A DNA stretch of 40,000 bases from assembly GCF_042854785.1 (NCBI RefSeq), contig NZ_BAABXI010000001.1, positions 2,795,656 through 2,835,655 of the forward strand, given 5' to 3'. The notes under the pieces were generated by a model. It made no database searches. It was not told the origin of the DNA and was given only the letters and a program-made list of their open reading frames with translations. This document shows, one piece after another, positions 8,021 through 20,329 of this stretch (positions are counted from its first letter, which is position 1; each line of letters opens with the position of its first letter). Made by a program: the position numbers and the translations under genes. Source of the stretch: Bacteroides sp. f07 (GTDB lineage: Bacteria; Bacteroidota; Bacteroidia; Bacteroidales; Bacteroidaceae).

Positions 8021-8689
8021 TCATTCCATTTTATACATTTTTTTCTCCCAACCTTTTAATTCTTGAAGAACAGGTTTAGGATTTTGCAATATCTGATTTA
8101 GAAATTCTATAAAGTTAGGTGCTAATACTTCCGTTGCAGGTGTTTCGTAATCAAAGAGGACAATTGCACCTTCTTTATTCTCATTATCTGTCAATTTAAG
8201 AGCTATCACGCCATAATCAGAATATTGACCTATCGCAAAATACCCTTTATCAAGAATTTCCTCTTGCAGTTCCTTATTATTTTCAATTAGGATTTTATTC
8301 CATGAATGAATGGGCTTTGGATATAGACGAACATCTAAATCCCAAAACATTTCATAAAAGTGTTTATATTTCAAGTAGGTCTTGTATGAAAGCGGAAGGA
8401 TAACATTTAATTTACTTTCTAATTTGGAAATATCCTCGTCTGAAATTTGATTATCTATCACTTTCCATACATGGTCTTTGTCCGTAATAATGTTCACCAT
8501 ATAATTAGTATGTTCCGGTTGAGTGACATATATCTTAACCGATTTCCCTTGAAGTATGCTATTATCTAACGAAGCCTGCATTTCAGGTTCTATGGGTTTC
8601 TCGTAAAAAGGAACATACATAAGATATTCTCTATGTTCTTTCACAAAGCCCAAGCATTCATCTACATATTTCTTTACTACTTCTTCCAT
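8021..8689 (-). CDS. Cassette 12: SMI1/KNR4 (SUKH-type) family protein, putative immunity protein
   Basis: 222-aa ORF. ISDEDISKLESKLNVILPLSYKTYLKY and a later GYFAIGQYSDYGVIALKL...GAIVLFDYE fit the SMI1/KNR4 pattern. No signal peptide. Confidence 0.65.
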   Translation of the reverse strand: MEEVVKKYVDECLGFVKEHREYLMYVPFYEKPIEPEMQASLDNSILQGKSVKIYVTQPEHTNYMVNIITDKDHVWKVIDNQISDEDISKLESKLNVILPLSYKTYLKYKHFYEMFWDLDVRLYPKPIHSWNKILIENNKELQEEILDKGYFAIGQYSDYGVIALKLTDNENKEGAIVLFDYETPATEVLAPNFIEFLNQILQNPKPVLQELKGWEKKMYKME

Positions 8690-8710
8690 ACTATTTTGTT
8701 TTTTAAATTC

Positions 8711-8764
8711 GCTACTAATTGTTTTCAGCTAATTGTTTTCAGTATTTAGTTGTTTGTTAGACCG
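8711..8764 (-). repeat. attC-like site R2 (degenerate, with 14-bp internal duplication)
   Basis: Plus strand: GCTACTAATTGTTTTCAGCTAATTGTTTTCAGTATTTAGTTGTTTGTTAGACCG. CTAATTGTTTTCAG occurs twice in tandem. The core TTGTTA contains the stop codon of cassette 11. Confidence 0.65.
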
Positions 8765-9065
8765 TTCCTAACTTATCATGTAACCCTGTTTGTGATAATA
8801 TTGAATAGAAATTATCAAATTTCCCGATCAGTTCATTAAAAGATGCGAACTCATATCTTTCGGAGAATAAACAATTCCCTGTTTCGATACTAAGGATTTC
8901 CATAACACAAGAATTATCATCCCATAGTGTTACACGACCTAAATTAGTATCATTATCTATATCAACATACATACTATGTACATAATCCGTATTTTCATGT
9001 ATTGTGTATGTACATGACTGATTATTAATCTGTTCTTTTATATAGGAAATGAATTTTCGTATCAT
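8757..9065 (-). CDS. Cassette 11: small hypothetical protein
   Basis: 102-aa ORF, acidic, no signal peptide. The stop TAA is the core TAA of site R2. The ATG is 8 nt downstream of the 3' end of intron 1. Confidence 0.6.
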   Translation of the reverse strand: MIRKFISYIKEQINNQSCTYTIHENTDYVHSMYVDIDNDTNLGRVTLWDDNSCVMEILSIETGNCLFSERYEFASFNELIGKFDNFYSILSQTGLHDKLGTV

Positions 9066-9114
9066 ATTATTTTATCGAGTAGGTCAGCCCTCTTTCGGGG
9101 GCTTTCCCCTCTAA

Positions 9115-9148
9115 GAACCGTACTTGATAGTTTCCCATCATACGGCTC
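9115..9148 (-). ncRNA. Group II intron domain V (copy 1)
   Basis: The minus strand reads GAGCCGTATGATGGGAAACTATCAAGTACGGTTC. It is 34 nt, with the AGC triad, a 2-nt bulge and a GAAA tetraloop. Confidence 0.9.
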
Positions 9149-9186
9149 AAGCATTTCTAAATTTAATTTTCATAAATTAAACCGGC

Positions 9187-10725
9187 TCAACTTACTTTCC
9201 TAAAAGTTTTCCCATTAGTCAGTTCTCGTTTCGCACAGAGTTTCCACGTAAGATATTCCTGCCATTGCGGGTCAAACGGATTGAGTTTTGCTTTGACCTT
9301 TCTATACCTTAAAATAGGGATGTCGGCTAATTGTTCCAACCTTATCCTTTCTTTGTTATCGGCTTTCTTGAAGTCTGTGGCGAACACCCAGTTTCTCTTC
9401 CCTTCCATTTTAAAATATCTCTCCTTTACCCATCGCCAAGTTTTCTTGTCATGTCTTCTGTGTGCCCACCTTTTGAGTTGTTTCACCAGTATGGTGTCCA
9501 GATCGCTGAACGTCTTCTTGGCGGATACAAATCTAAAGTAGTTGCCCCAACCTCTGAGTACCGGATTTAGTTTCCCGATCAAGTCCTCCTGTTTAGCGAC
9601 TTTATTCTTGAAGACCACTTCATGCGTTTTCTCCACAAACCTCTTGATACTCTTCTTTGAGGGTTTAATCAATACGTTCCTTTTATATCTTCGTATGTTA
9701 TATCCCAAGAAGTCGAACCCTTTAGTGATATGGGTTATCAACGTCTTCTCCTGCGAGAGTTCCAGTCCCCTGACGGCTAAAAAGTCTTTTAAGTCCTCCC
9801 TTATCTGTTCTAGCAGTTCCTTTGTGTCCGCTGAGACAACAAAATCATCCGCATAACGTATGAGATGAACTTTGGTACGGTAACGTTTACCGTTCACGTA
9901 CCTTTCTCTGTACTTCATTAGCAACATCTTTTCCATTCCATCCAGTGTGGCGTTTGCAAGTGTTGGCGATATAATACCGCCTTGCGGTGTTCCAGCCGTT
10001 GTAGGAGTGAGCAACTTGTTAAAGATAGCTCCACATTTCAACCACTTTCTTAGTATCTGCTTGTCGATTGGTACATTATCTACAAGCCATTCATGGCTGA
10101 TATTGTCGAAGCATCCTTTGATGTCTCCCTCCAATACCCACATCGGTGGGTTAGGTTGGTGGCTGAACAATATGTGTATCGCATCTATGGCATCTGCCGT
10201 ACTCCTGTATCTTCTGAACCCGTATGAGTTCGGGTCAGCCATTGTTTCCATTACCGGTTCGAGTGCCATTAGATATAACGCCTGCATTGCCCTATCTTTC
10301 ATGGTGGGTATGCCCAGCGGGCGTTTCTTGCCGTTGCTTTTGGCAATGTACACCCTTTTCAGTGGAAGTGGCTTGTAGCCCCTCCGTCTCAACGAAGCAA
10401 CCGCTTCGAGTTTATGCGCTTGGGTAGTCCATTTGATTTGGTCTACCCAAGCGGTTCTTTTTCCTTTGTTGGAAGTAACCCGTTTTACCGCCAGCGCTTT
10501 TGCGGCAAACGAGGTAGTCAGGATACGCTGCAAGGCTTTCACCTTTGCGTATCTCTTTTCCTTTTGAGCCTTTACAATCCGAGCTTGAAGCTTCCGCACA
10601 GCGGTTTGAAGCTTGTTCCAGTCTATGCTGTTCCAAGCCCCTTTGGGTCTGCTCCTGTGTGAAGACGCACACTTTGTTTTCACTCCGTCCATTTGCTTTT
10701 CTCCATTTAAAAGTTCTTCCTTCAT
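9187..10725 (-). CDS. Group II intron reverse transcriptase/maturase (copy 1)
   Basis: RT motifs RPLGIPTMKDRAMQ, TPQGGIISP and YADDFVV. Maturase X domain LNPVLRGWGNYFRF. No HNH/En domain. The start is uncertain: ATG at 10725 or 10692. The track ORF reaches 10875 by read-through of intron RNA sequence. Confidence 0.9.
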   Translation of the reverse strand: MKEELLNGEKQMDGVKTKCASSHRSRPKGAWNSIDWNKLQTAVRKLQARIVKAQKEKRYAKVKALQRILTTSFAAKALAVKRVTSNKGKRTAWVDQIKWTTQAHKLEAVASLRRRGYKPLPLKRVYIAKSNGKKRPLGIPTMKDRAMQALYLMALEPVMETMADPNSYGFRRYRSTADAIDAIHILFSHQPNPPMWVLEGDIKGCFDNISHEWLVDNVPIDKQILRKWLKCGAIFNKLLTPTTAGTPQGGIISPTLANATLDGMEKMLLMKYRERYVNGKRYRTKVHLIRYADDFVVSADTKELLEQIREDLKDFLAVRGLELSQEKTLITHITKGFDFLGYNIRRYKRNVLIKPSKKSIKRFVEKTHEVVFKNKVAKQEDLIGKLNPVLRGWGNYFRFVSAKKTFSDLDTILVKQLKRWAHRRHDKKTWRWVKERYFKMEGKRNWVFATDFKKADNKERIRLEQLADIPILRYRKVKAKLNPFDPQWQEYLTWKLCAKRELTNGKTFRKVS

Positions 10726-11347
10726 TTTGTAAAGAAACACCAGGCAGAAGTCAGCCTGCTTTCGCAGCGGGATAATGTCACCTTGCTTGTCACGCAGGCA
10801 TTGGCTCAATCCCGTATCCTCCCTCATTACAAGGGTGGCATTCGCTTTTTCCACCATCTCATACCCGCATACCATTCGGCTTTACTTACGTTCGGCTTAC
10901 CTGTCATTCATGGCAGGAGATATACGGGCTTACCAAGTTTCGCCCTCCAACTTACGGACGGATTAGGGTCTGTCCATCTGCCGACGGTGCTTTGTCCGTG
11001 TAACCCTCACCAAAAGAAAGGTTATCCGACCGTTTACCATTTTGGTCAAGGCTCGCCAGCATCTTGAGCCTTTCATTAGTCACGACAGTTCCCGACAGTT
11101 CAATTAATTTACCCATACCGTCCAGCTTAGCCCCTTAGTCGCCTGATGCTGGCGGCAGTTGATTCCCCTCACGGTTCTGTCTTCCCTTGCGGCGGGTTCG
11201 TTGTCGAACAGCTTCACACAACGTCATTGCTGGTGATGCATGTGTTCCAAGCTACTGCTGACGGAACAGCAGGTTCAGACAGCCTGTTTTCAACCCGTGA
11301 AATGGGTGCTGAACAATTAAGAGAGGCGACTTGCTTGTCGCACCTCA

Positions 11348-11407
11348 GTTGCTAATGGGTTGCAGCTAATCGCCATTTTAAGGCGATTGAGGTGCATGTT
11401 GTGTTTA
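11348..11407 (-). repeat. attC-like site R3 (occupied by intron 1)
   Basis: Plus strand: GTTGCTAATGGGTTGCAGCTAATCGCC ATTTTA AGGCGATTGAGGTGCA TGTTGTGTTTA. The ORF-proximal core is degenerate (TTGTG instead of TTGTTA; 1-nt deletion). Confidence 0.75.
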
Positions 11408-11427
11408 TTCCTTGCAATTTTAAGAAT

Positions 11428-11766
11428 CTATTCAGTAGTAATATCAAAATCTTGTTTATTTCTCCATGCTATCCTAAGATAATCACCTCTTATTAAACCT
11501 TTATCACGGTAATATCTAACTATTTCAGAGGGCGACCAATCCTTGCCATTGGAAAATAATGTTCCGATTTCTATTAACTTTTGAAAAAGAACTGCACGCT
11601 TTTCAACATCATCAGTAGGCATAGAAATAGAATAGTATGGTTCTACTTTTTCAAATCCAAGACTGATAAGTTCATTCTTAAAATTGTCATTATTATTAGC
11701 TATCAATATATTATTTCCTGCCAATTCAATAGCAACGACTTTATCTTTTAATTTTTCATTCATCAT
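11428..11766 (-). CDS. Cassette 10: small hypothetical protein
   Basis: 112 aa from ATG 11766 (MMNEKLKDK...). The track ORF starts at a GTG at 11775 that lies inside site R4. Confidence 0.6.
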   Translation of the reverse strand: MMNEKLKDKVVAIELAGNNILIANNNDNFKNELISLGFEKVEPYYSISMPTDDVEKRAVLFQKLIEIGTLFSNGKDWSPSEIVRYYRDKGLIRGDYLRIAWRNKQDFDITTE

Positions 11767-11768
11767 AT

Positions 11769-11825
11769 TAAACACTAATGTGTTTCAGCTAACTGCGTTT
11801 AGCTGTTTAGGTGATTGTTATGTGC
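11769..11825 (-). repeat. attC-like site R4
   Basis: Plus strand: TAAACACTAATGTGTTT CAGCTAA CTGCGT TTAGCTG TTTAGGTGATTGTTATGTGC, with a perfect 7-bp stem. The cassette 9 ORF reads through the core and stops in the loop. Confidence 0.75.
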
Positions 11826-12167
11826 CTTATTGTTCTCCTCTTCTATTTTCATAAGAAATATTTCTTGCAAATCGCCACTTATTATTTTACCGTTTAGAGT
11901 TAATTCAAAAAATCCTTCTTGTTCGGCAAAGGATGATACATTATCCAGTTTGGCAAAAACATTAGATAGGGTATCTGTCATAACTAAACGCACGAAAGTT
12001 TTTAGCTCTTTTCGCTGTTTTTCATTCAACTGGCTATATAACTCTTTACTATCATTCCAAGGCTCATAACCACCTTCTATTGATGGAGTATTTAGAGTGT
12101 TGAAATATCGACTTAAGTTATCCATTATTTCTTTTTTTAATGAATTGACAAATTCTACATCATTCAT
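11799..12167 (-). CDS. Cassette 9: small hypothetical protein
   Basis: 122-aa ORF, acidic, no signal peptide. Its 3' end overlaps site R4. Confidence 0.6.
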   Translation of the reverse strand: MNDVEFVNSLKKEIMDNLSRYFNTLNTPSIEGGYEPWNDSKELYSQLNEKQRKELKTFVRLVMTDTLSNVFAKLDNVSSFAEQEGFFELTLNGKIISGDLQEIFLMKIEEENNKAHNNHLNS

Positions 12168-12186
12168 ATTTTTCCATTTTTAAGTT

Positions 12187-12244
12187 GCACATAATGTCCG
12201 GCAGATAATCGACTATTAAGGTACTTTATCTGTTTGTTAGCAAT
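12187..12244 (-). repeat. attC-like site R5
   Basis: Plus strand: GCACATAATGTCCGG CAGATAA TCGACTATTAAGGTACT TTATCTG TTTGTTAGCAAT. The core TTA (12237-12239) is the stop codon of cassette 8. Confidence 0.8.
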
Positions 12245-12551
12245 CTAATTCATTTCCGTTTAATAATTCTATATCTCCTAATGCTTTATATTCCCTGTCC
12301 AAATCTTCTTTTGTGAATAGGTAATAATTGTCCTCAAATCTTGGCATATCATAGCCTTTTACAAAAGATAAGAAAGAGAATATTTCTGCATCTATATCTA
12401 TACCTTGATTATCCTTGTTATCCAAAGCAAATAATAGATTATCAGCTTTCATCGAAATTCTATTTCTAATACCTTCTACATTATATTCTTCATTATCAGG
12501 TAACTCTTTAAGTATCTGATAGAAGTTTATTATCTGTTGTTTTACTTTCAT
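12237..12551 (-). CDS. Cassette 8: small hypothetical protein
   Basis: 104-aa ORF, acidic. The stop codon is embedded in the R5 core. Confidence 0.6.
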   Translation of the reverse strand: MKVKQQIINFYQILKELPDNEEYNVEGIRNRISMKADNLLFALDNKDNQGIDIDAEIFSFLSFVKGYDMPRFEDNYYLFTKEDLDREYKALGDIELLNGNELDC

Positions 12552-12568
12552 TCATAATTTGTTTAGTG

Positions 12569-12624
12569 ATTGCTAATGGGATGCAGCTTGCCGCTGTTAG
12601 GTGGCACAGGTGCTTGTTATAAGC
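12569..12624 (-). repeat. attC-like site R6
   Basis: Plus strand: ATTGCTAATGGGATGCAGCTTGCC GCTGTTA GGTGGCACAGGTGC TTGTTATAAGC. The stem has one bulged base and one C:C mismatch. Confidence 0.8.
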
Positions 12625-13091
12625 TAATTTTCGTATTCAATCTTGTAATCTTCATATACATTGAATACAGTTTCACAATCAGATAAAATACTTTCAAGCA
12701 AAGGTTTGACCTCACTATTCCAATCCAACTTACCCAAACCTGCACCTATTTTCGGGAGCGACACAGTTTTAATACCTCTGCTTTCGCATACTTTTTTCAA
12801 GCGTTTCAAGCCTTTATTCAGATATGTAAGTTCTGCATGATACATATCCGGTTGTGTAGCGATGTAGATTATACCCGGAGAGAAACCTTTGATTTCTCCT
12901 ATAAACATATCACCTGCTTGAAACTTGGTGTTTCGTGTGTACTTCTTAAAGAGTTTTTGGATTTCAGGGAATTGACTTGATAGCTTAAAGGCAAGCCCAG
13001 TTCCTAATCCTTCTTGTGAGCCAACAGCCACACCTTGCGCTATGTACTCATCTTTGCTTTGCAATATATCTCCCGAAATGTATTTTATCAT
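12624..13091 (-). CDS. Cassette 7: macro-domain (ADP-ribose-binding/hydrolase fold) protein
   Basis: 155-aa ORF. MIKYISGDILQSKDEYIAQGVAVGSQEGLGTGLA..., a later KTVSLPKIGAGLG and a small size fit stand-alone macrodomain proteins. Confidence 0.6.
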   Translation of the reverse strand: MIKYISGDILQSKDEYIAQGVAVGSQEGLGTGLAFKLSSQFPEIQKLFKKYTRNTKFQAGDMFIGEIKGFSPGIIYIATQPDMYHAELTYLNKGLKRLKKVCESRGIKTVSLPKIGAGLGKLDWNSEVKPLLESILSDCETVFNVYEDYKIEYEN

Positions 13092-13111
13092 ATTGTTTCC
13101 GTTTTTCTGTT

Positions 13112-13170
13112 GCTTATAATAGGTTTGTGAATAACTGACCGTTAAGGCAGTTCATTCGCTTGTTACCAAT
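13112..13170 (-). repeat. attC-like site R7 (same subfamily as R12)
   Basis: Plus strand: GCTTATAATAGGTTTGTGAATAACTGACC GTTA AGGCAGTTCATTCGC TTGTTACCAAT. In the cassette-sense strand the stem GAATGAACTG/CAGTTATTC has one extrahelical G. Confidence 0.8.
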
Positions 13171-13173
13171 ATT

Positions 13174-13461
13174 TCAATCTCCACTTACCCAAATTGTGTT
13201 TTTATCTATTATCATAGGACGCAAATTCTTAACGAACTCTATTATAATTTTCATTGATTGTTTATCCGACGTCTTTATATAATCATTTGCCAAATTAATA
13301 AGTAATTCAAGATTTTGAGGTATCAATCTTGTATCTCCATATTCATCAATACTCAATCCTGTCTTTACATGAAACTGCAAGAAGACGGGTTGTAATATTC
13401 TCAATTCAACATCATTCAAAGCGAAGTGATGATTATTCATTGTATTGCTAAAATCTAACAT
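13174..13461 (-). CDS. Cassette 6: small hypothetical protein
   Basis: 95-aa ORF with no recognisable motifs. Confidence 0.55.
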   Translation of the reverse strand: MLDFSNTMNNHHFALNDVELRILQPVFLQFHVKTGLSIDEYGDTRLIPQNLELLINLANDYIKTSDKQSMKIIIEFVKNLRPMIIDKNTIWVSGD

Positions 13462-13476
13462 TTCAATTATTTGTTT

Positions 13477-13532
13477 ATTGGTAATGGTAGCTAACCGACC
13501 TTTACGGGGAGGTTAAGCCGCTTGTTACCTGC
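13477..13532 (-). repeat. attC-like site R8
   Basis: Plus strand: ATTGGTAATGGTAGCTAACCGACC TTTAC GGGGAGGTTAAGCCGC TTGTTACCTGC. The cassette-sense stem GCTTAACC/GGTTAGC has one extrahelical T. The core TTA (13525-13527) is the stop codon of cassette 5. Confidence 0.8.
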
Positions 13533-13860
13533 TTTTTCGAGTTATTACAATATCATCAAAACTTAATAGCAAAGACTGACCGTTTGGTCTATATTCCTTC
13601 CAATCTTCAATGTCGGGACTTTCATAATCCATCATTATATGATAAAAGGAGTAAAGACCGAAATTTTCTTGAGGTAAGTCCGGCAGACTATGTATGTCAT
13701 AACATCCAACACCTTCCAATCCTTTTTCTTCAATCCGTTTTAACCATCCTAAAGCCTTATCTATTTGTTGAAGATAGGGAAGTTCCTGTTGATTGCCATG
13801 CTTCAAAGCATCAACAGTTTTTATTCGTTCTTTTTGTAATAACTCAATTATATCTTTCAT
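13525..13860 (-). CDS. Cassette 5: small hypothetical protein
   Basis: 111 aa from ATG 13860 (MKDIIELLQKE...). The track ORF extends to 13950 only because intron domains V/VI happen to be open in frame (MLEPYDGKLSSTVLRGG...). Confidence 0.6.
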   Translation of the reverse strand: MKDIIELLQKERIKTVDALKHGNQQELPYLQQIDKALGWLKRIEEKGLEGVGCYDIHSLPDLPQENFGLYSFYHIMMDYESPDIEDWKEYRPNGQSLLLSFDDIVITRKSR

Positions 13861-13910
13861 TTTATTTATCGGATAGGTCGGAGGCATTGCTGCCCCTTTC
13901 CCCCCCCTAA

Positions 13911-13944
13911 GAACCGTACTTGATAGTTTCCCATCATACGGCTC
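13911..13944 (-). ncRNA. Group II intron domain V (copy 2)
   Basis: Identical 34-nt GAGCCGTATGATGGGAAACTATCAAGTACGGTTC on the minus strand. Confidence 0.9.
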
Positions 13945-14021
13945 AAGCATTTCTAAATTTAATTCTCATAAATTAAACCGGCTCAACTCGCTTTCCTTGA
14001 GGTCTTTCTCTTAGTCAGTTC

Positions 14022-15536
14022 TCATTTAGCACGGAGTTTCCACATCATATATTCCTGCCATTCGGGGGCGAACGGGTTCATTTCTGCTTTAACTTTCCTA
14101 TACCTTAAAATAGGGATGTCGGCTAATTGTTCCAACCTTATCCTTTCTTTTTTATCGGCTTTCTTAGAGTCTGCGGCAAAGCCCCAGTTTCTACGCCCTT
14201 CCGTTTTGAAATATCTCTGTTTCACCCATCGGCGGCTTTTCTTGGGATGTCTTCTGCTTGCCCATCTCTTGAGTTGCCTTACCAAGATGGAGTCCAGATT
14301 GCTGAACGTCTTCTTGGCAGATACAAACCTAAAGTAGTTTCCCCATCCTCTCAGTACGGGATTGAGCTGCATAATCAAATCCCCCTGTTTGGCGGTCTTG
14401 TTCCCGAATATAACCTCGTGAGTCTTTTCCACAAATCTTTTCACGCTCTTCTTTGCGGGTTTTATCAATATGTTCTTTTTGTATCGGCGTATATTGTAAC
14501 CCAAAAAGTCAAAGCCCTCGGTGATATGTGTAATCAGCGTTTTCTCCTCCGATAGTTCCAGCCCCCTGACGGCTAAGAAGTGTTTCAAGTCCTCTTTGAC
14601 TTGTTCCAGCAGTTCCCTTGTGTCAGCTGATACGACAAAGTCATCCGCATAACGTACCAAATGGACTTTGGGGCGATATCGTTTTCCGTTCACGTATCTT
14701 TCCCTGTACTTCTTTAGCAACATCTTTTCCATTCCGTCCAACGTGGCGTTCGCCAACGTCGGCGATATAATGCCACCTTGCGGTGTCCCTGCCGTTGTGG
14801 GGGAGAGTAACTTGTTGAAGACCGCTCCGCATTTCAGCCACTTCTTTAATATCTGCTTGTCGATTTGTACATTATCCACAAGCCACTCGTGGCTGATGTT
14901 GTCAAAGCACCCTTTAATGTCTCCCTCCAGTACCCATTGTGGCGGGTTAGGCTGGTGGCTGAACATTATATGCAGCGCATCTATGGCGTCCGCTGTGCTT
15001 CTGTATCTTCTAAACCCGTATGAATTCGGGTCTGCGGTCGTTTCCGTCACAGGTTCGAGAGCCATCAGATATAATGCCTGCATTGCCCTGTCTTTCATGG
15101 TGGGTATGCCCAACGGGCGTTTCTTGCCATTGCTCTTGGCGATGTACACCCTTTTCAGTGGAAGTGGCTTATAGCCTCTCCGTTTTAACGAAGTTACTGC
15201 TTCGAGCTTTTGCGCTTGGGTAGTCCATTTTATATTGTCCACCCCTGCGGTTCGTTTCCCTTTATTGGAAGTGACACGTTTGACTGCCAGCGCTTTCGCA
15301 GCAAACGAGGTAGTCAAGATACGTTGCAAGGATTTTACCTTGTTGTATCTCTTTTCCTTTTGAGCCTTTACAATCCGTACCTGAAGCTTTCGCACAACAG
15401 CTTGTAGCTTGTCCCAGTCCATACTGTTCCAAGCTCCTTTCGGTCTGCCCCTGCGTGAAGATGCACACTGTGTTTTCACTTCGTTCATTTGCCTTTCTTC
15501 ATTTAAAAGTTCTTCATTCGTTTTGTAAAGAAACAC
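14022..15536 (-). CDS. Group II intron reverse transcriptase/maturase (copy 2)
   Basis: 504-aa ORF that aligns with copy 1 throughout. I counted about 60 substitutions in about 470 aligned residues by hand, with no frameshifts. YADDFVV and the X domain are intact. An alternative start is ATG 15488. Confidence 0.9.
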   Translation of the reverse strand: MFLYKTNEELLNEERQMNEVKTQCASSRRGRPKGAWNSMDWDKLQAVVRKLQVRIVKAQKEKRYNKVKSLQRILTTSFAAKALAVKRVTSNKGKRTAGVDNIKWTTQAQKLEAVTSLKRRGYKPLPLKRVYIAKSNGKKRPLGIPTMKDRAMQALYLMALEPVTETTADPNSYGFRRYRSTADAIDALHIMFSHQPNPPQWVLEGDIKGCFDNISHEWLVDNVQIDKQILKKWLKCGAVFNKLLSPTTAGTPQGGIISPTLANATLDGMEKMLLKKYRERYVNGKRYRPKVHLVRYADDFVVSADTRELLEQVKEDLKHFLAVRGLELSEEKTLITHITEGFDFLGYNIRRYKKNILIKPAKKSVKRFVEKTHEVIFGNKTAKQGDLIMQLNPVLRGWGNYFRFVSAKKTFSNLDSILVRQLKRWASRRHPKKSRRWVKQRYFKTEGRRNWGFAADSKKADKKERIRLEQLADIPILRYRKVKAEMNPFAPEWQEYMMWKLRAK

Positions 15537-16148
15537 CAGACGGAAGTCTGCCTGTTTTCACAGTGGAATGATGTCGCTTCGCTATTTTATATTATGTATG
15601 GCTACGCTCAATTCCTATCCTCCCTCATTACAAGGGTGGCGTTCGCTTTCTCCATCCTCTCATACCCGCATACCGTTCGGCTTTACTTGCGTTCGGCTTA
15701 CCTGCTGTTCATGGCAGGAGATATACGGGCTTACCAAGTTTCGCCCTCCAACTATCGCCCGGGTTAGAGCCCGTCCATCTGACGGCGGTGCTTTGTCCGT
15801 GTAACCCTCACAACAAGAAAGGTTATCCGACCGTTTACCATTTTGGTCAAGGCTCGCCAGCATCTTGAGCCTTTCATTAGTCACGACAGTTCCCGACAGT
15901 TCAATTAATTTACCCATACCGTCCAGCTTAGCCCCTTAGCCACCTGATGCTGGCGGCAGTTGATTCCCCTCGCGGTTCTATCTTCCCTTGTGGCGGGTTC
16001 GTTGTCGAACAGCTCCACACAACGTCATTGCTGGTGATGCATGTGTTCCAAGCTACTGCTGACGGAACAGTAGGTTCAGACAGCCTGTTTTCAACCCGTG
16101 AAATGGGTGCTGAACAATTAAGAGAGGCGACTTGCTTGTCGCACCATT

Positions 16149-16206
16149 GTTGCTAATGTCCAGCGGCTAACTGACTTTTCAGAAGTTAAGCCGTTTGTTA
16201 TCAGTC
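16149..16206 (-). repeat. attC-like site R9 (occupied by intron 2)
   Basis: Plus strand: GTTGCTAATGTCCAGCGGCTAACTGAC TTTTC AGAAGTTAAGCCG TTTGTTATCAGTC. The cassette-sense stem CGGCTTAAC/GTTAGCCG has one extrahelical T. Confidence 0.8.
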
Positions 16207-16212
16207 ATATTT

Positions 16213-16584
16213 TTATTCAGAGCTTTTATATTTACTATATTTCTCAATCCATCCCTCTTGAGAATATAATTCACCACACAATCCATCAGATATGTCAGCC
16301 AAAGATGTCACATCTTTTTCTGAATTAGAAATCTTCCAATCATCAATATCTTGTTCAAAAAAGAACAGAGTATTATGAATTGTGGAATCCACCATTTTAT
16401 AGACTATTTGCCTTATGAGTTCTACATCTTCATTTTTAAGGTTATTTATGGCTTCATGTAGTTTCCGGTCAGATGTACTTTTCATGTGCCCTGAAACAGT
16501 TCCTTCAAAAACAAATAAGCTATTATCCCTTACGCTTTTGACGAAATCTTTTCCAAATTGATTTAGTATTTCTTTTGTTTCCAT
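16213..16584 (-). CDS. Cassette 4: small hypothetical protein
   Basis: 123-aa ORF, acidic, no signal peptide. Confidence 0.6.
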   Translation of the reverse strand: METKEILNQFGKDFVKSVRDNSLFVFEGTVSGHMKSTSDRKLHEAINNLKNEDVELIRQIVYKMVDSTIHNTLFFFEQDIDDWKISNSEKDVTSLADISDGLCGELYSQEGWIEKYSKYKSSE

Positions 16585-16598
16585 TTTATTTCTTTTTT

Positions 16599-16654
16599 GA
16601 CTGATAATGTTTGGCAGCGTGCCGCTTTAAGCGGTGTGCTGTTTGTTAGCAACC
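16599..16654 (-). repeat. attC-like site R10
   Basis: Plus strand: GACTGATAATGTTTGG CAGCGTGCCGC TTTAA GCGGTGTGCTG TTTGTTAGCAACC. On the plus strand the stem holds three G:T wobbles. On the cassette-sense (minus) strand these same positions are A:C mismatches. The cassette 3 ORF reads through the core and stops in the loop. Confidence 0.8.
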
Positions 16655-17028
16655 TCTTTAATACTAACGTCTCCCAACACTACAATATAAGAGTTGAAGG
16701 TCATTCCATTCACTTCTTCTTCATCTCCGTCAGCCTTAACAAGACTTTTAAGAAGGCTTGAAACTGGAACTAATAATTGAGGATTGTCGGTCGATGATTT
16801 ATACTTTGTATAAATCGCATTTATTTGATGGACTGTTCCTTGTAGAGTAAGTAGTCCGTCACTTGTTTCATAATGCGCATCGTAGATATATTCTATTGTT
16901 TGGGTGATGTCAGTTAATGTTTTATTAAAAGCAAAAACATCCCATTTAACCATATCGCCTATGCTGAATGGTTGACCGCAACATTGCATCTGCCATCCTT
17001 CATAAAGTACTGTACAATATGTTTTCAT
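16627..17028 (-). CDS. Cassette 3: small hypothetical protein (EGWQMQCCGxPF motif)
   Basis: 133-aa ORF. The N-terminal Cys-rich motif YEGWQMQCCGQPFSIGDMVKW recurs, as I recall, in uncharacterised small proteins. The 3' end overlaps R10. Confidence 0.6.
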   Translation of the reverse strand: MKTYCTVLYEGWQMQCCGQPFSIGDMVKWDVFAFNKTLTDITQTIEYIYDAHYETSDGLLTLQGTVHQINAIYTKYKSSTDNPQLLVPVSSLLKSLVKADGDEEEVNGMTFNSYIVVLGDVSIKEVANKQHTA

Positions 17029-17044
17029 ATCTTTTATTTTTATT

Positions 17045-17101
17045 GGTTGCTAATGGTTTGCAGCTAATCGCTTTCAGTACGATTAGCCACATGTTATCGG
17101 C
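17045..17101 (-). repeat. attC-like site R11 (looks like an unoccupied intron target)
   Basis: Plus strand: GGTTGCTAATGGTTTGCA GCTAATCG CTTTCAGTA CGATTAGC CACATGTTATCGGC, with a perfect 8-bp inner stem. The left half is nearly identical to R3. Confidence 0.8.
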
Positions 17102-17108
17102 ATATTGA

Positions 17109-17480
17109 TTATTTAATGATAGTCAAATCTCCATCTACAAATCCCACTGCGATATGTTCTACTTTAAAAAGTTTTAAATCAGTAAGATCCTTGATTAAAT
17201 CTTTGAGGATAGGTGCAACAATTTCTAACACTTCTTCCCATTTTAGATTGCCTGAGATTTCAAAATCAGGACAACTCCTTTGAGTTGGTTCAAAACTTTC
17301 ATCACATGCCCAATCTTCATCCTTTTCATCAAACCAAGTAGAGCCGACCATTTCTATGCCATAAGGTTCATAAAGATTAAAGCTCAAAGCCACAATATCA
17401 GAAGGCAATTCTTCTGTTTTATCAATATTGACAATCCATTTTTTGATAATTTCCTTTAAATCATTCGTTTTAGTATTCAT
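17109..17480 (-). CDS. Cassette 2: small hypothetical protein
   Basis: 123-aa ORF, very acidic, no signal peptide. Confidence 0.6.
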   Translation of the reverse strand: MNTKTNDLKEIIKKWIVNIDKTEELPSDIVALSFNLYEPYGIEMVGSTWFDEKDEDWACDESFEPTQRSCPDFEISGNLKWEEVLEIVAPILKDLIKDLTDLKLFKVEHIAVGFVDGDLTIIK

Positions 17481-17514
17481 TTTTCTTCCTATTAAAAATT
17501 AAACATTTTATTAA

Positions 17515-17572
17515 GCCGATAATGGTTTGTGAATAGCTGACCATTAGGGCAGTTCATTCACTTGTTATTCGC
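17515..17572 (-). repeat. attC-like site R12 (same subfamily as R7)
   Basis: Plus strand: GCCGATAATGGTTTGTGAATAGCTGACC ATTA GGGCAGTTCATTCAC TTGTTATTCGC. Confidence 0.8.
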
Positions 17573-17575
17573 ATA

Positions 17576-18202
17576 TTATTCCTGTTGCCAATATGGGTGC
17601 AAAGCTGTTTCAGCTTTGAAATTCGGGATGTTAAATTCATAAATCCAATCAAGGCGAGTCCAAATGCCAGAGTTTTCACCGACCATAAGCATCCTTTCAT
17701 TACAAAAAACAGCTTCCATTTCATAAGGGCGACGACCAATTTCAAAGTTCATAACTATAAACCGAACAGGGGATTTCTCTTGCTTTGGAATCACAATAGA
17801 ATTGCATTGAAAAACCGATTTAGCTTGTTTACCTATGGACTTGTTGTTTTTACTCATTGCTTCAATAGCTTTCTTTGCGTTTCTTGATACCACCTTTGGA
17901 TTGTAACCTGGACCATATTGGGGGTTGATATCAGCAGGCAATAAGTTCATTTGCCTTGATAGCTTTACAAGTCCCTCGATAATCATCTCTTTTATATTCA
18001 TTGGGTTGATTTTACAAAACTCTTCCCATGCGGCAAGTTGTTTTTCTGTAGGAGAATTTTCATCCCCGACATCAAACCACGCAACAAAATCCCCGTCCAA
18101 AGAATTTATGTTAATTGAATGTTCGGTTTCATATAATCCAAGTTCTCCAATTCTCCAAAATTGGGGATTAAAACTTGATATGTTATTTATTGTTTTAGTC
18201 AT
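17576..18202 (-). CDS. Cassette 1: hypothetical protein
   Basis: 208-aa ORF, the first after the recombinase. No signal peptide and no recognisable motifs. Confidence 0.6.
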   Translation of the reverse strand: MTKTINNISSFNPQFWRIGELGLYETEHSININSLDGDFVAWFDVGDENSPTEKQLAAWEEFCKINPMNIKEMIIEGLVKLSRQMNLLPADINPQYGPGYNPKVVSRNAKKAIEAMSKNNKSIGKQAKSVFQCNSIVIPKQEKSPVRFIVMNFEIGRRPYEMEAVFCNERMLMVGENSGIWTRLDWIYEFNIPNFKAETALHPYWQQE

Positions 18203-18214
18203 TTTCTTTCCTTT

Positions 18215-18266
18215 GCGAATAACGTTATGCTAACAGCGGTCATTTAATGTTTCGCTGTTATTTTTT
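18215..18266 (-). repeat. First site of the array (attI-like position, between recombinase stop and cassette 1)
   Basis: Plus strand: GCGAATAACGTTATGC TAACAGCG GTCATTTAATGTTT CGCTGTTA TTTTTT, with a perfect 8-bp stem. In cassette sense the junction core reads ACGTTATTCGC, with G rather than A before TTA, unlike the other sites. Confidence 0.65.
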
Positions 18267-18278
18267 CTAAGTATTTTA

Positions 18279-18719
18279 TTAAATCTCTTCTTCTAAAATA
18301 TCGTCCAACGGACTTTTAATTTTGCTTTTGTAAGTGTCTGCAATATGGACGTACATCTCTGTTGTCTTAATATTTTCATGCCCCAACAGTTCTTTTATGA
18401 TTTTCAAGTCCGTTCCTTGTTCTATTAAATGTGTAGCGAACGAATGGCGGAACAAGTGGGGATATACTCTTTTTGTTATACCTGCTTCATGGGCTATCTC
18501 TTTCAGTTTTTTGGAAACGATACTTTCAGAGAATTGTACTCCGGCTTCACGTTCAAAAAGCCACTTTTCCGACTGATATGCTATCCTATATTCTTCCAGT
18601 TTATTGATAAACGGTTTGGATAGCAGCGTATATCGGTCTTTCTTCCCCTTCCCCTTTCCCTGTCGCACATGTATCAGTGAACAGGAAATGTTTATATCAT
18701 CCGGTTTTAAATTCAGCAT
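18279..18719 (-). pseudogene. Tyrosine recombinase, C-terminal catalytic half only (XerD-like; N-terminal half missing)
   Basis: The 146-aa ORF starts just after where the box-I Arg should be (MLNLKPDDI...). It keeps GKGKKDR, HLFRHSFATHL, LLGHENIKTTEMYVH and the C-terminal IKSPLDDI. Only about 50 aa lie between KDR and GIT, so the IntI-specific extra domain is absent. The upstream sequence is closed by stops in the same frame. Confidence 0.8.
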
Positions 18720-18761
18720 TATGTTAATTCATTTTCTTATCTACTTAATGACAATATTGGG

Positions 18762-18769
18762 CAAATTTA
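18762..18769 (-). promoter_or_regulatory. Candidate -7 promoter box upstream of recombinase remnant and array
   Basis: The minus strand reads TAAATTTG (TAnnTTTG consensus) about 43 nt upstream of ATG 18719. I saw no clear -33 TTTG. Confidence 0.3.
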
Positions 18770-19050
18770 CGCTATTTCCTTCTATTCTCTATTCTGATTT
18801 TCATCACATACATTCTGATAACTCATCAATATCGGTATAACGTCCCTAAAATACGGTTTTATTTCATCACCCACAAAAAAGCTGTTAGTTTTTTCCTCTA
18901 TCCTATAAAATAGTCTCTCTTGACTGGCAATTGCACAATGATCTGTTACATAATTCATAACTATACAATGATCAGTCTCCTATTCTCAGCATTTATAAAT
19001 GCCACTATGAGATCATTGCCGTTCATCGATTTCACCTGATTGTCGAAATA

Positions 19051-19080
19051 CCGATGAATAAGGAGATAGCGGGTGAAAGC
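19051..19080. repeat. Inverted repeat, left copy (core)
   Basis: The reverse complement of CCGATGAATAAGGAGATAGCGGGTGAAAGC matches 19395-19424 at 28 of 30 positions. Weaker similarity extends to roughly 19028-19122. Confidence 0.85.
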
Positions 19081-19162
19081 AAGTGGTAAATTCAAGTAAA
19101 ACTGAACATCAGCGGTTTCACCCTGTCTTTTCAAAATATCCCTTGAGCTAAAACAAATATCA

Positions 19163-19225
19163 TTATAGCTAATCCGGATATGCTTATAGCTAATCGAAAT
19201 ATGCTAATAGCAAATCCGCTGTCAG
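19163..19225. repeat. 3 x 21-bp tandem direct repeat (TTATAGCTAATCnnnATATGC)
   Basis: Units at 19163-19183 (TTATAGCTAATCCGGATATGC), 19184-19204 (TTATAGCTAATCGAAATATGC) and 19205-19225 (TAATAGCAAATCCGCTGTCAG, degenerate). They contain the GCTAAT motif also found in the cassette-site cores. Confidence 0.8.
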
Positions 19226-19246
19226 GTATTAATAGATAATCCATCA

Positions 19247-19334
19247 GGATCTATATATCCAACACATTGAATCTATATACTTACCGCATTGAATCTATAT
19301 ATTCAGCACGGTGGCTCTATATGTCCAGCAATCG
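19247..19334. repeat. 4 x 22-bp tandem direct repeat (GRMTCTATATRYYY...), iteron-like
   Basis: The four units are GGATCTATATATCCAACACATT, GAATCTATATACTTACCGCATT, GAATCTATATATTCAGCACGGT and GGCTCTATATGTCCAGCAATCG. Confidence 0.85.
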
Positions 19335-19394
19335 GTATAAATAAATTTGAAAGGTGAAAGCAATAACGGGAGATTTCACCTTAATTTTCTCTAC

Positions 19395-19424
19395 GCTTTC
19401 ACCCGCTATCTGCTTATTCATCGA
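19395..19424. repeat. Inverted repeat, right copy (core)
   Basis: GCTTTCACCCGCTATCTGCTTATTCATCGA. It lies inside a plus-strand open frame (19347-19529, TTG-initiated) whose translation resembles a recombinase N-terminal SAM-like domain. Confidence 0.85.
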
Positions 19425-19840
19425 TGTTTCAGAGATAAGGTGAAACAGGTGGAATTTATAAGTCAAAAGTTCATGTTATACTTATGTGAATCAGTAATTA
19501 ATTTGATACCTTCGGTTTACCTCTACTGATTATTAAAGATAAAACAACTTTTGTTTCTTCTCTCATTCCCCTGCATTTTCACAATTCCGCGACAAAGAAC
19601 AAACTCATTTTCTTCTTGGTTTATCATGGATATTGAATAAGAAAAACATAACAGAATAAGCAATAATTCATAATTAGCCTATCCAAATGAGAAATATAAA
19701 CGATAAATGATTACTATTTACTCTACAAATCCACTCATTTCCTACTATAAAACCAGAGTAATCGCAACAAAACAGATTTCGATATATAGGTCAAAAAAAA
19801 TCCTTTTTTAGTTGGCTATACAAAATTATCTTCAAAAAGA

Positions 19841-20329
19841 CTACAATACGACAATCAATCCTATGACAGTCAATGCCGTATATACACAGTTGATATAAAA
19901 GGCAACCATTAATAACCGGGGGATATATTCCGGATTCTTGAATAAGGATGAAGCCTGACTGACCAACAAAGAAAGGAAAAGTACAAGACTAAAAATGACC
20001 TGGCTTATCAGCAACCATACCGGATATTCCGGTATAGAAGATACTGCCCATGTCTGAAGCAAAGGAGTAATGTTTTGCAAAAAGACATGAGCGGCAAAAT
20101 AACTCAAAGAAGGTACAACTTCCTTTTTCTGCCGCAGAAGTGCATTTATTGCATAAATACCCATTCGAATTTGTCCCACCAGTATGGAAAGTTGAAAAAA
20201 GTAGAAAATCCAAGATATTGGATTTTCCGTGATTCTATCGGTTACGAAGTAATCATAAAAACAGAGTGAGGACACGCAGCTTATTGCTATAAGTCCGGCA
20301 CAAATAAATGAAGCACTTCTTTTATTCAT
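19841..20329 (-). CDS. Hypothetical integral membrane protein
   Basis: 162-aa ORF with about 5 hydrophobic spans and no recognisable motifs. Confidence 0.55.
   Translation of the reverse strand: MNKRSASFICAGLIAISCVSSLCFYDYFVTDRITENPISWIFYFFQLSILVGQIRMGIYAINALLRQKKEVVPSLSYFAAHVFLQNITPLLQTWAVSSIPEYPVWLLISQVIFSLVLFLSLLVSQASSLFKNPEYIPRLLMVAFYINCVYTALTVIGLIVVL

What the first reader, a model, noticed from the sequence alone, without database searches (positions are those of the whole stretch)
18279..19125. The array-associated recombinase is truncated, is not an IntI, and is co-oriented with the cassettes
- **Truncation.** Only the C-terminal 146 aa are open. They contain the HxxR and H...Y residues and a C-terminal IKSPLDDI tail like IntI's SPLD. 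The ORF begins just after the position of the first catalytic Arg, and everything upstream is closed by stops.
- **N-terminal remnant.** A degenerate fragment (frame ...AFTRYLLIHRYFDNQVKSMNGNDLIVAFINAE..., about 19110-18961) resembles the RYSxNTIKSY / DIxxFI pattern of XerD-like SAM-domain N-termini. It is out of register with the catalytic half.
- **Not IntI.** The spacing between GKGKKDR and the HxxR box is about 50 aa, so there is no IntI-type insertion.
- **Implication.** The array is probably frozen unless a paralog acts in trans. The clean cassette termini argue that it was active recently.
Basis: partly seen in the sequence, partly recalled or inferred. Interest (0 to 1): 0.6.

Follow-up and report, generated by a model that had tools for sequence, protein, structure and literature searches.

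The report
Deleted recombinase of rAID immunity array
The recombinase gene that heads this Bacteroides-type "rAID-1" array of anti-toxin immunity genes has lost its first 235 codons through one clean deletion of about 0.71 kb. This is ordinary gene decay in a known system, but closely related strains with the same dead gene still differ by one precisely bounded cassette next to it.

Summary
**Confirmed**
- Window 18279-18719 (-) is a 146-aa C-terminal piece of a tyrosine recombinase.
- It belongs to the XerD-like recombinases of rAID-1 arrays (Ross et al. 2019).
- It lacks the IntI-specific insertion.
- It points the same way as the cassettes, as rAID-1 recombinases normally do.

**Deletion**
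- An intact ortholog of 379 aa (L053, 97% identical) maps one deletion of about 712 bp.
- The deletion removes the start codon, codons 1-235 and the first catalytic Arg.
- It keeps the upstream region with a Bacteroides -7 promoter box.
- Its junction creates the ATG of the remaining ORF.

**Not an artefact**
- The same junction occurs in independent assemblies.

**Refuted**
- The "N-terminal remnant" at 18961-19110 is one arm of a 0.5-kb repeat scattered through the genome.
- That repeat has five more copies in this genome and lies upstream of the promoter region.

**"Frozen" is not supported**
- Loci that share the deletion differ by a 361-bp cassette inserted exactly at 18220|18221.
- The same cassette, with the same ends, sits in an unrelated array.
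- No rAID-type paralog exists in this genome, so a recombinase acting in trans or strain-to-strain recombination is inferred.

**Verdict**
- This is a decayed member of a known system, of modest interest.

The parts
18279..18719 (-). 3' remnant of the rAID-1 tyrosine recombinase gene. The ORF is 146 aa and corresponds to residues 236-379 of the intact 379-aa ortholog, plus a 2-aa GK duplication.
   Evidence: It is 97% identical to L053 and 72-75% identical to L012/L015-type full-length proteins.
18717..18726 (-). Deletion junction. The last base of the retained 5' UTR plus the TG of former codon Leu236 form the new ATG at 18719-18717.
   Evidence: The identical junction is found in L154 and in all contigs that carry the 144- or 146-aa product.
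18642..18659 (-). GKGKGK stretch with a 6-nt in-frame tandem duplication next to the catalytic Lys. Intact orthologs and the 144-aa allele lack the duplication.
18761..18769 (-). TAAATTTGC, a match to the Bacteroides -7 promoter consensus TANNTTTGY, retained 43 nt upstream of the new ATG.
   Evidence: The consensus is taken from PMC12632263. The block is conserved in L053 and G415.
18726..18963 (-). Native upstream region of the recombinase gene. It is homologous to the region upstream of intact orthologs.
   Evidence: 90% identity to L053:2714-2952 and 84% identity to L136:3819-4009.
18995..19499 (.). Non-coding repeat scattered through the genome (MITE-like), with an internal 93-nt inverted repeat and 22-bp tandem repeats.
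   Evidence: No Rfam match was found.
18215..18262 (-). Recombinase-proximal (attI-like) site: an inverted repeat TAACAGCG...CGCTGTTA followed by ...ACGTTA. The cassette boundary is at 18220|18221.
   Evidence: Homology to G415 ends at 18220, and homology to L053 ends a few bases further on, at 18214. The polymorphic cassette inserts exactly at 18220|18221.
8021..18220 (-). Co-oriented cassette array with hairpin-type sites between the genes. It holds immunity-type genes (SUKH, TriTu, DUF6578, DUF6547, Macro) and two group II introns at about 9074-11273 and 13868-16074.
   Evidence: GC content is 31-34.5% against 42% in the flank.

Best explanation
**What it is**
- The locus is a rAID-1 (recombinase-associated acquired interbacterial defence) array.
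- Its XerD-like tyrosine recombinase gene was inactivated by a single deletion of about 712 bp (up to 733 bp).

**What the deletion removed**
- The last few bases of the 5' UTR, the start codon and codons 1-235.
- That covers the family-specific N-terminal extension, the SAM-like DNA-binding domain and the start of the catalytic domain, including the first catalytic Arg.

**What the deletion left**
- The native promoter region, now fused to codon 236. The junction happens to create an ATG.
- A 146-aa C-terminal fragment that keeps Lys, His-x-x-Arg, His and Tyr.
- The fragment lacks Arg-I and all DNA-binding parts, so it cannot recombine DNA on its own (inferred from established tyrosine-recombinase chemistry).

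**Expression (inferred)**
- Transcription from the retained promoter probably still runs through the fragment into the co-oriented immunity cassettes. Immunity expression would then survive while self-catalysed cassette turnover is lost.

**Cassette change after the deletion**
- Strains that share the deletion differ by one precisely bounded cassette at the recombinase-proximal site.
- At least one cassette insertion or excision, or import of a recombined segment from a related strain, therefore happened after the deletion.
- If it was site-specific, it needed a recombinase supplied in trans, for example from a second rAID locus or one carried on a plasmid or ICE.
For: **Identity and truncation**
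- Pfam Phage_integrase matches only profile positions 42-170 of 172.
- Full-length orthologs of 371-379 aa exist in related genomes.
- In the tree, the fragment sits in a 100%-supported clade with the recombinase of Parabacteroides gordonii MS-1, a genome used as a rAID-1 example by Ross et al..

**Deletion mapping**
- L053:2714-2952 matches window 18963-18726.
- L053:3686-4184 matches window 18718-18214.
- L053:2974-3685 has no counterpart in the window. G415 gives the same picture.
- The N-terminal 225 aa are found nowhere in this genome.

**Not an artefact**
- The exact 146-aa product is on 17 contigs from independent samples, in the same context.
- A 144-aa allele with the same junction is on others.

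**Promoter**
- TAAATTTGC is retained at 18769-18761.
- 11 of 17 orthologs have TAnnTTTG 32-71 nt upstream of their predicted start.

**rAID-1 features**
- More than ten co-oriented small ORFs, 31-34.5% GC, repeated hairpin sites, and SUKH, TriTu and DUF6578 genes.

**Event after the deletion**
- A 361-bp cassette is inserted exactly at 18220|18221 in 11 fetched contigs from at least 10 samples: L041-L045, L144, L146, L160 and the three NCBI records.
- In the 1.8 kb compared (L160 excepted, which was only checked by blastn at 99.9%), the flanks are 99.9-100% identical to the window. L138 is 99.4% identical over 10.5 kb.
- The same cassette, 97.5% identical in DNA, sits in another array (L145) with the same ends.
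Against: **Transcription and translation**

**Direction of the cassette event**
- Gain versus loss is unresolved. The three lineages are about equidistant, with 17-21 mismatches in 3.5 kb.
- The only rooting character is a 6-nt repeat indel, which can recur by slippage.

**Trans-acting recombinase**
- This genome has no candidate of the rAID type.
- The trans-acting recombinase is therefore hypothetical here. Homologous recombination with a strain that has an intact recombinase could explain the polymorphism instead.

**Membership criterion**
- Direct identity to the reference recombinase BF9343_RS08045 was not measured.
Confidence: 0.85

Rival explanations
1. The array is truly frozen. The first-position cassette difference arose in a strain with an intact recombinase and was moved onto the deletion background by homologous recombination, with crossovers in the 3' recombinase remnant and in the 208-aa cassette. 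The reverse is also possible: the deletion allele was moved onto different arrays.
For: - No rAID-type recombinase is left in this genome.
- A related array (L158) shares the recombinase 3' end and the first cassette at 97.6% identity but has a different order downstream, which shows that related arrays circulate.
- A second difference between strains (window 13108-13861) ends at an intron boundary and fits homologous recombination between intron copies.
Against: - It needs two crossovers within about 0.4-0.6 kb on either side.
- The flanks of the forms with and without the cassette are 100% identical over 1.8 kb.
- No donor with an intact recombinase and these flanks was found.
Confidence: 0.3
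2. The truncation is an assembly or frameshift artefact, and the real gene is intact.
For: None was found.
Against: - The identical junction and product appear in 17 contigs from independent isolates and metagenomes.
- The 144-aa allele shows the same junction.
- The missing 0.7 kb is absent from the whole 6.33-Mb assembly.
Confidence: 0.02
3. The 5' half was displaced by a rearrangement or insertion, and a degenerate N-terminal remnant survives upstream at 18961-19110.
For: A weak 20-residue match of the peptide to the start of the SAM-like domain (35% identity, E=0.1 against a single sequence).
Against: - The stretch is part of a repeat with five more copies in this genome in unrelated contexts, and the repeat also occurs in other genomes of the genus.
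- The same peptide reads out on the opposite strand from the other arm of the inverted repeat.
- It has no Pfam hit.
- It lies upstream of the conserved promoter region, where no coding sequence of this gene ever was.
Confidence: 0.03
4. The 146-aa fragment is retained because it does something, for example as a regulator, or as a subunit that poisons or assists an incoming full-length recombinase. It would then not be mere debris.
For: - The ORF is open and has an ATG behind the native promoter.
- The protein is identical in 17 contigs.
Against: - The strains are so close that identity says nothing about selection.
- A 6-nt duplication has arisen beside the catalytic Lys.
- Other members of the family are decaying in different ways: a frameshift in G415 and an in-frame TGA in G147.
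Confidence: 0.1

Closest known systems
rAID-1 (recombinase-associated acquired interbacterial defence) gene clusters of Bacteroidales. Sources: Ross et al. 2019, bioRxiv 10.1101/471110 / Nature 575:224; follow-up PMC12247911.
   Same: - An XerD-like tyrosine recombinase at the 5' end.
- A co-oriented array of short, low-GC genes that include immunity families (SUKH, TriTu).
- Conserved integron-like repeats between the genes.
- The recombinase clusters with the one in P. gordonii MS-1.
   Different: - Only the last 144 (+2) codons of the recombinase remain.
- The published search rule (a full-length hit at about E 1e-100) would miss this locus.
- A chromosomal, well-assembled array without a working recombinase was not described in the two papers read.
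Integrons with an inactivated intI, and CALINs (clusters of attC sites lacking an integron integrase; Cury et al. 2016).
   Same: - A cassette array with hairpin recombination sites whose own recombinase is missing or dead.
- The idea that cassettes could still be moved by a recombinase supplied in trans.
   Different: - The recombinase family lacks the IntI-specific insertion and falls below the IntI model cut-off.
- The gene is co-oriented with the cassettes, not divergent.
- The sites end in ...CATTA, not GTTRRRY.
XerA, XerC and XerD chromosome-dimer resolvases
   Same: - The same fold and catalytic residues, and a Lys-to-His spacing with no insertion.
- The best NCBIfam model is the XerA type, NF040815, at 216 bits.
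- The best solved structure is XerA, 5HXY.
   Different: - All Xer models score below their cut-offs.
- There is an extra N-terminal extension of about 100 aa, and an SPLD tail shared with IntI.
- In the tree, E. coli XerC and XerD and this genome's own Xer-like genes fall outside the clade.

Membership tests
rAID-1 system (Ross et al. 2019) | [quoted passage not shown] | tested here: inconclusive
   - The remnant is 97% identical to an intact 379-aa ortholog.
- It is 72-75% identical to the type present in P. gordonii MS-1, a published rAID-1 genome, and lies in a 100%-supported clade with it.
- Only 146 aa remain, so the full-length criterion cannot be met.
- The reference protein itself was not compared.
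rAID-1 system (Ross et al. 2019) | [quoted passage not shown] | tested here: met
   Thirteen small ORFs lie on the minus strand between 8021 and 18202, not counting the two intron RT ORFs.
rAID-1 system (Ross et al. 2019) | Downstream genes with a GC content of 41% or lower. | tested here: met
   The cassette blocks are 31.0-34.5% GC. The chromosomal flank is 42.4% and the recombinase remnant 37.9%.
rAID-1 system (Ross et al. 2019) | Repetitive, integron-like sequences between the genes. | tested here: met
   Repeat families D2 and D3 are present. Every intergenic site has the layout TAACA-stem-loop-stem-CATTA.
rAID-1 system (Ross et al. 2019) | Cassettes that encode interbacterial immunity-type proteins. 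| tested here: met
   Pfam hits are TriTu (8757-9065), SUKH/SMI1_KNR4 (8021-8689), DUF6578, DUF6547 and Macro. Protective function was not tested.
Integron integrase (IntI) | The IntI-specific additional domain between the catalytic Lys and the His-x-x-Arg box. | tested here: not met
   - TIGR02249 matches in two stretches. The first ends at profile position 179 on the full-length orthologs, and the C-terminal match begins at about position 238 on the fragment.
- In the alignment, IntI1 and IntI2 carry about 35 extra residues that are absent here, in the intact orthologs and in XerC/XerD.
Integron integrase (IntI) | A score above the curated model cut-off (TIGR02249, 265 bits). | tested here: not met
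   Full-length orthologs score 204-207 bits and the fragment 105 bits. No match in this genome exceeds the cut-off.
Integron integrase (IntI) | The integrase gene is transcribed divergently from the cassette array. | tested here: not met
   The remnant and the cassettes are on the same strand. The same holds in the intact loci L012, L015 and L053.
XerC/XerD | A score above the curated cut-offs (TIGR02224, 335 bits; TIGR02225, 330 bits) and grouping with the housekeeping Xer proteins. | tested here: not met
   Full-length orthologs score 178-191 bits. E. coli XerC and XerD and this genome's L002 and L004 form a separate group in the tree.

The most novel reading that the evidence does not exclude
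rAID arrays may not depend on their own linked recombinase. On this reading, an array whose recombinase had already been deleted still gained (or precisely lost) a cassette at its recombinase-proximal site. A recombinase acting in trans would have done this, coming from a transient plasmid- or ICE-borne rAID element or from a non-cognate host recombinase. The promoter-preserving deletion would then be a selected state that fixes a useful set of immunity genes while keeping it expressed.
Probability: 0.3. Interest if true: 0.6.

Novelty: new member of a known kind. Interest (0 to 1): 0.38.

Why it matters
- How rAID arrays are built is still unknown, and PMC12247911 calls it an area of active research.
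- This lineage is a natural recombinase-null mutant with a known, clean deletion, an apparently intact promoter, and near-isogenic relatives that differ by one cassette at the proximal site.
- Two questions therefore become testable. Is the linked recombinase needed for cassette gain, loss and expression? Can it be supplied in trans?
- The locus also shows that searches keyed on a full-length recombinase will miss decayed arrays.
- In itself, a pseudogenised recombinase is ordinary.

Tried and rejected
- **N-terminal half elsewhere:** I looked for the missing half in the window and in the genome with tblastn and the genome search. Nothing scored better than E=0.1.
- **Rfam:** a search of 18700-19900 gave no match.
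- **IntI from control genomes:** this failed, as no control genome scored above the cut-off. I took IntI1 and IntI2 from plasmid records instead.
- **Upstream 162-aa membrane protein:** a search for strains carrying it, to find an ancestral intact allele, found no exact match on record.
- **Rooting the haplotypes:** I tried SNP patterns, but the three lineages are equidistant, so gain versus loss of the cassette stays open.
- **Other arrays in this genome:** I looked for arrays that might bring their own recombinase. Only two solitary sites turned up, and neither shows a recombinase-sized ORF within 4 kb or lies near any of the genome's recombinase matches.
- **Rejected readings:** an assembly artefact, a rearranged 5' half, and membership of IntI or XerC/XerD.

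Full report
**1. What is at the coordinates**

Window 18279-18719 (-) is an open frame of 146 aa. It matches Pfam Phage_integrase at E=7.8e-28, but only over profile positions 42-170 of 172. The two short ORFs upstream of it (18782-18958 and 18961-19134) match no Pfam family at E<=1.

Everything downstream on the same strand is a run of short ORFs separated by repeated sites. Two group II introns interrupt this run. An IS transposase sits at the far end, at 7137-7949.

**2. What family the fragment belongs to**

Searching 300 genomes of the same family with the fragment gave 23 further matches in 17 genomes.
- Almost all are open frames of 370-416 aa. Examples are L012 (376 aa) and L015 (371 aa), which are 72-75% identical to the fragment over their last ~145 residues.
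- These proteins have an N-terminal extension of about 100 aa with no Pfam match, then a SAM-like domain (PF13495), then the catalytic domain.
- A scan of species-representative genomes found the L012 type at 98-99% identity in Paraprevotella xylaniphila, Parabacteroides gordonii MS-1, two Odoribacter genomes and Parabacteroides distasonis.
- The same type occurs at 98% on a Phocaeicola massiliensis plasmid.

Ross et al. [quoted passage not shown] They also describe integron-like repeats between the genes. P. gordonii MS-1 is one of their example genomes.

The window meets the array criteria.
- More than ten co-oriented ORFs are present.
- GC is 31-34.5%, against 42% in the flank.
- The repeated sites have the layout TAACA-stem-loop-stem-CATTA.
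- The cassettes include TriTu, SUKH, DUF6578, DUF6547 and Macro families.

In a maximum-likelihood tree, the fragment lies in a 16-member clade with 100% support that contains the P. gordonii protein. Its nearest neighbour is L053, an intact 379-aa ORF from a metagenome-assembled genome labelled Parabacteroides sp., at 97% identity. It does not cluster with phage integrases.

**3. Not IntI, not XerC/XerD**

The evidence from profile models, solved structures, a direct alignment and the tree agrees.
- **Profile models.** Full-length orthologs score highest on the XerA-type model NF040815 (207-216 bits; cut-off 220).
  - Next comes the integron-integrase model TIGR02249 (204-207 bits; cut-off 265).
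  - XerC and XerD follow at 178-191 bits (cut-offs about 330).
- **IntI region skipped.** The TIGR02249 match falls into two stretches. The first ends at profile position 179, and the C-terminal match (seen on the fragment) begins at about 238.
- **Solved structures.** The closest are XerA (5HXY) and VchIntIA (2A3V, again in two stretches), ahead of E. coli XerD.
- **Direct alignment.** IntI1 and IntI2 carry about 35 extra residues between the Lys and the His-x-x-Arg box. Those residues are missing here, in the intact orthologs and in XerC/XerD.
- **Shared tail.** The C-terminal SPLD motif is shared with IntI1 but not with XerC/XerD.
- **Spacing.** The Lys27-to-His88 spacing is 61 residues.
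- **Tree.** E. coli XerC and XerD and this genome's own Xer-like genes (L002, L004) group apart. IntI1 and IntI2 fall, with weak support and on a long branch, among environmental Bacteroidota relatives of the family.

Co-orientation is the rule in this family.

**4. How the gene was truncated**

Two related loci map the lesion.
- **L053 (intact).** L053:2714-2952 aligns to window 18963-18726 at 90% identity, and L053:3686-4184 aligns to window 18718-18214 at 96.4%.
- **G415 (same genus).** L136:3819-4009 aligns to 18912-18725, and L136:4739-5231 aligns to 18718-18220.

The window therefore lacks L053:2974-3685. That is 712 bp, or 733 bp if the 7 bases AACATAA at the junction are filler.

The deletion removes the last 6 nt of the 5' UTR, the start codon, codons 1-235 and the first base of codon 236. 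The last A of the left flank plus the TG of the former Leu236 codon form the ATG of the 146-aa ORF. Arg-I (R232) is lost. Lys, His-x-x-Arg, His and Tyr remain.

No trace of the N-terminal 225-235 residues exists in the window or anywhere in the 6.33-Mb assembly.

The upstream block is conserved in the window, L053 and G415. It contains TAAATTTGC (18769-18761), a match to the Bacteroides -7 promoter consensus TANNTTTGY (consensus from PMC12632263). Of 17 orthologs examined, 11 have the motif 32-71 nt upstream of their predicted start. From these facts I infer that the promoter is retained and now drives the fragment and probably the array. This inference was not tested.

The window allele also has a 6-nt tandem duplication (GKGK to GKGKGK) beside the catalytic Lys.

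**5. The truncation is real**

The exact 146-aa product is recorded on 17 contigs from independent isolates and metagenomes, in the same gene context. A 144-aa allele without the 6-nt duplication has the identical deletion junction (L154, L161).

**6. The 'N-terminal remnant' is something else**

The stretch 18961-19110 lies in one arm of a 93-nt inverted repeat (19030-19122 / 19353-19445). The plus strand of the other arm gives the same peptide.

Window 18995-19499 is a ~505-bp repeat with five more copies (75-85% identical) in unrelated intergenic places in this genome. Further copies occur in other genomes of the genus.

The peptide's best match to the intact recombinase is 20 residues at 35% identity, with E=0.1 against a single sequence. 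The stretch also lies upstream of the conserved promoter region. This likewise contradicts the earlier unchecked note e1-2473996, which read the two arms as recombinase 5' fragments.

**7. Is the array frozen?**

This genome has no second recombinase of the family. The best other match is 43% identical and groups with XerC/XerD.

Yet loci that share the deletion are not identical.
- **With the cassette.** The fetched contigs L041-L045, L144, L146 and L160 and three NCBI records (GCA_011075405.1, GCA_003359115.1, GCA_003359055.1) carry a 361-bp cassette encoding a 95-aa protein.
  - That is 11 contigs from at least 10 samples.
  - The cassette is inserted exactly between window 18220 and 18221.
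  - The junctions read ...ACGTTA|CCAAT... and ...CCATTA|TTCGC....
- **Without the cassette.** The window, L040, L154, L159 and L161 lack it.
- **Flanks.** Over the 1.8 kb compared, the flanks of the cassette-bearing contigs are 99.9-100% identical to the window. L160 was checked only by blastn, at 99.9%.
- **Cassette as a unit.** The inserted cassette is only 95% identical to the window's internal copy at 13104-13495. It is 97.5% identical, with an identical protein, to a cassette in an unrelated array (L145), where it has the same two ends.
- **Boundary.** Homology between the window and G415 ends at 18220, and homology to L053 ends a few bases further on, at 18214.

Only 3 nt (TTA) are shared at the two junctions, so a repeat-mediated deletion at exactly this point is unlikely.

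All haplotypes share the deletion junction. At least one cassette-boundary event is therefore younger than the deletion, unless the deletion allele or the cassette was moved between strains by homologous recombination.

The direction of the event cannot be decided. The three lineages are about equidistant, with 17-21 mismatches per 3.5 kb, and the only rooting character is the 6-nt repeat indel.

A second difference is that window 13108-13861 is absent from GCA_011075405.1. It ends at the 3' end of an intron, and recombination between intron copies explains it better.

**8. Verdict**

The truncation, the non-IntI status and the co-orientation hold. The remnant does not.

The locus is a decayed member of the known rAID-1 system, so it is not a new kind of element. 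Recombinase decay also occurs in relatives: a 1-nt frameshift in G415 and an in-frame TGA in G147.

The precise, promoter-sparing deletion and the cassette polymorphism that followed it make this a convenient natural null mutant for testing how rAID arrays are maintained.

Noticed in passing
window 18995-19499; own genome C1:588229-588798, C2:89852-90402, C3:853282-853852, C3:508107-508672, C3:216193-216757: A non-coding repeat of about 505-570 bp is scattered through the genome. It has a long internal inverted repeat and 22-bp tandem repeats, and its copies are 75-85% identical in unrelated intergenic sites. It also occurs in several other genomes of the genus and has no Rfam match. Its nature (MITE-like?) is unknown.
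   Followed up: partly
window 13108-13861 compared with L138:15212-15217: A 754-bp segment (one cassette of about 113 aa plus the 95-aa cassette) is present in the window but absent from GCA_011075405.1. The boundary is exactly the 3' end of group II intron 2, which suggests loss or gain by recombination between intron copies.
   Followed up: partly
window 11345-11357 and 16145-16158 (intron 5' junctions): Both group II introns begin (GTGCGAC...) 9 nt after the ...CATTA cassette boundary, within CATTAGCAAC(N4), and in the same orientation as the cassettes.
   Followed up: partly
own genome C1:2726305-2726353 and C1:3067551-3067598 (outside the window): Two solitary sites closely resemble the array's hairpin sites (85-92% identical to the site after the 208-aa cassette). 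Each follows a small ORF, and neither has a recombinase-sized ORF within 4 kb or lies near any of the genome's recombinase matches. They may be solo cassettes.
   Followed up: partly
L136:4017-5169 (G415:C77): The orthologous recombinase in a genome of the same genus (95.8% identical in DNA over the 3' part) is split into two frames by a 1-nt deletion near L136:4630. Another relative (G147:C20) has an in-frame TGA. Recombinase decay seems to recur in this family.
   Followed up: partly
L046-L050; plasmid OY726013.1 24439-25566: One recombinase type (L012-like) is 98-99% identical across Paraprevotella, Parabacteroides and Odoribacter genomes. It also sits on a 46-kb Phocaeicola massiliensis plasmid, which indicates recent horizontal spread of whole rAID heads.
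   Followed up: no
tree: IntI1 and IntI2 fall inside the wider clade of Bacteroidota and environmental relatives of the rAID recombinase, not with XerC/XerD. Support is weak and the branch is long. The rAID proteins also share the SPLD tail with IntI1.
   Followed up: partly
L158 (ERZ26858784 NODE_6330): A related array has the same recombinase 3' end and the same first cassette (97.6% identical) but a different order of cassettes downstream (126 aa, Macro, DUF6578, 87, 150, 195 and 121 aa). This shows array reshuffling between lineages.
   Followed up: no
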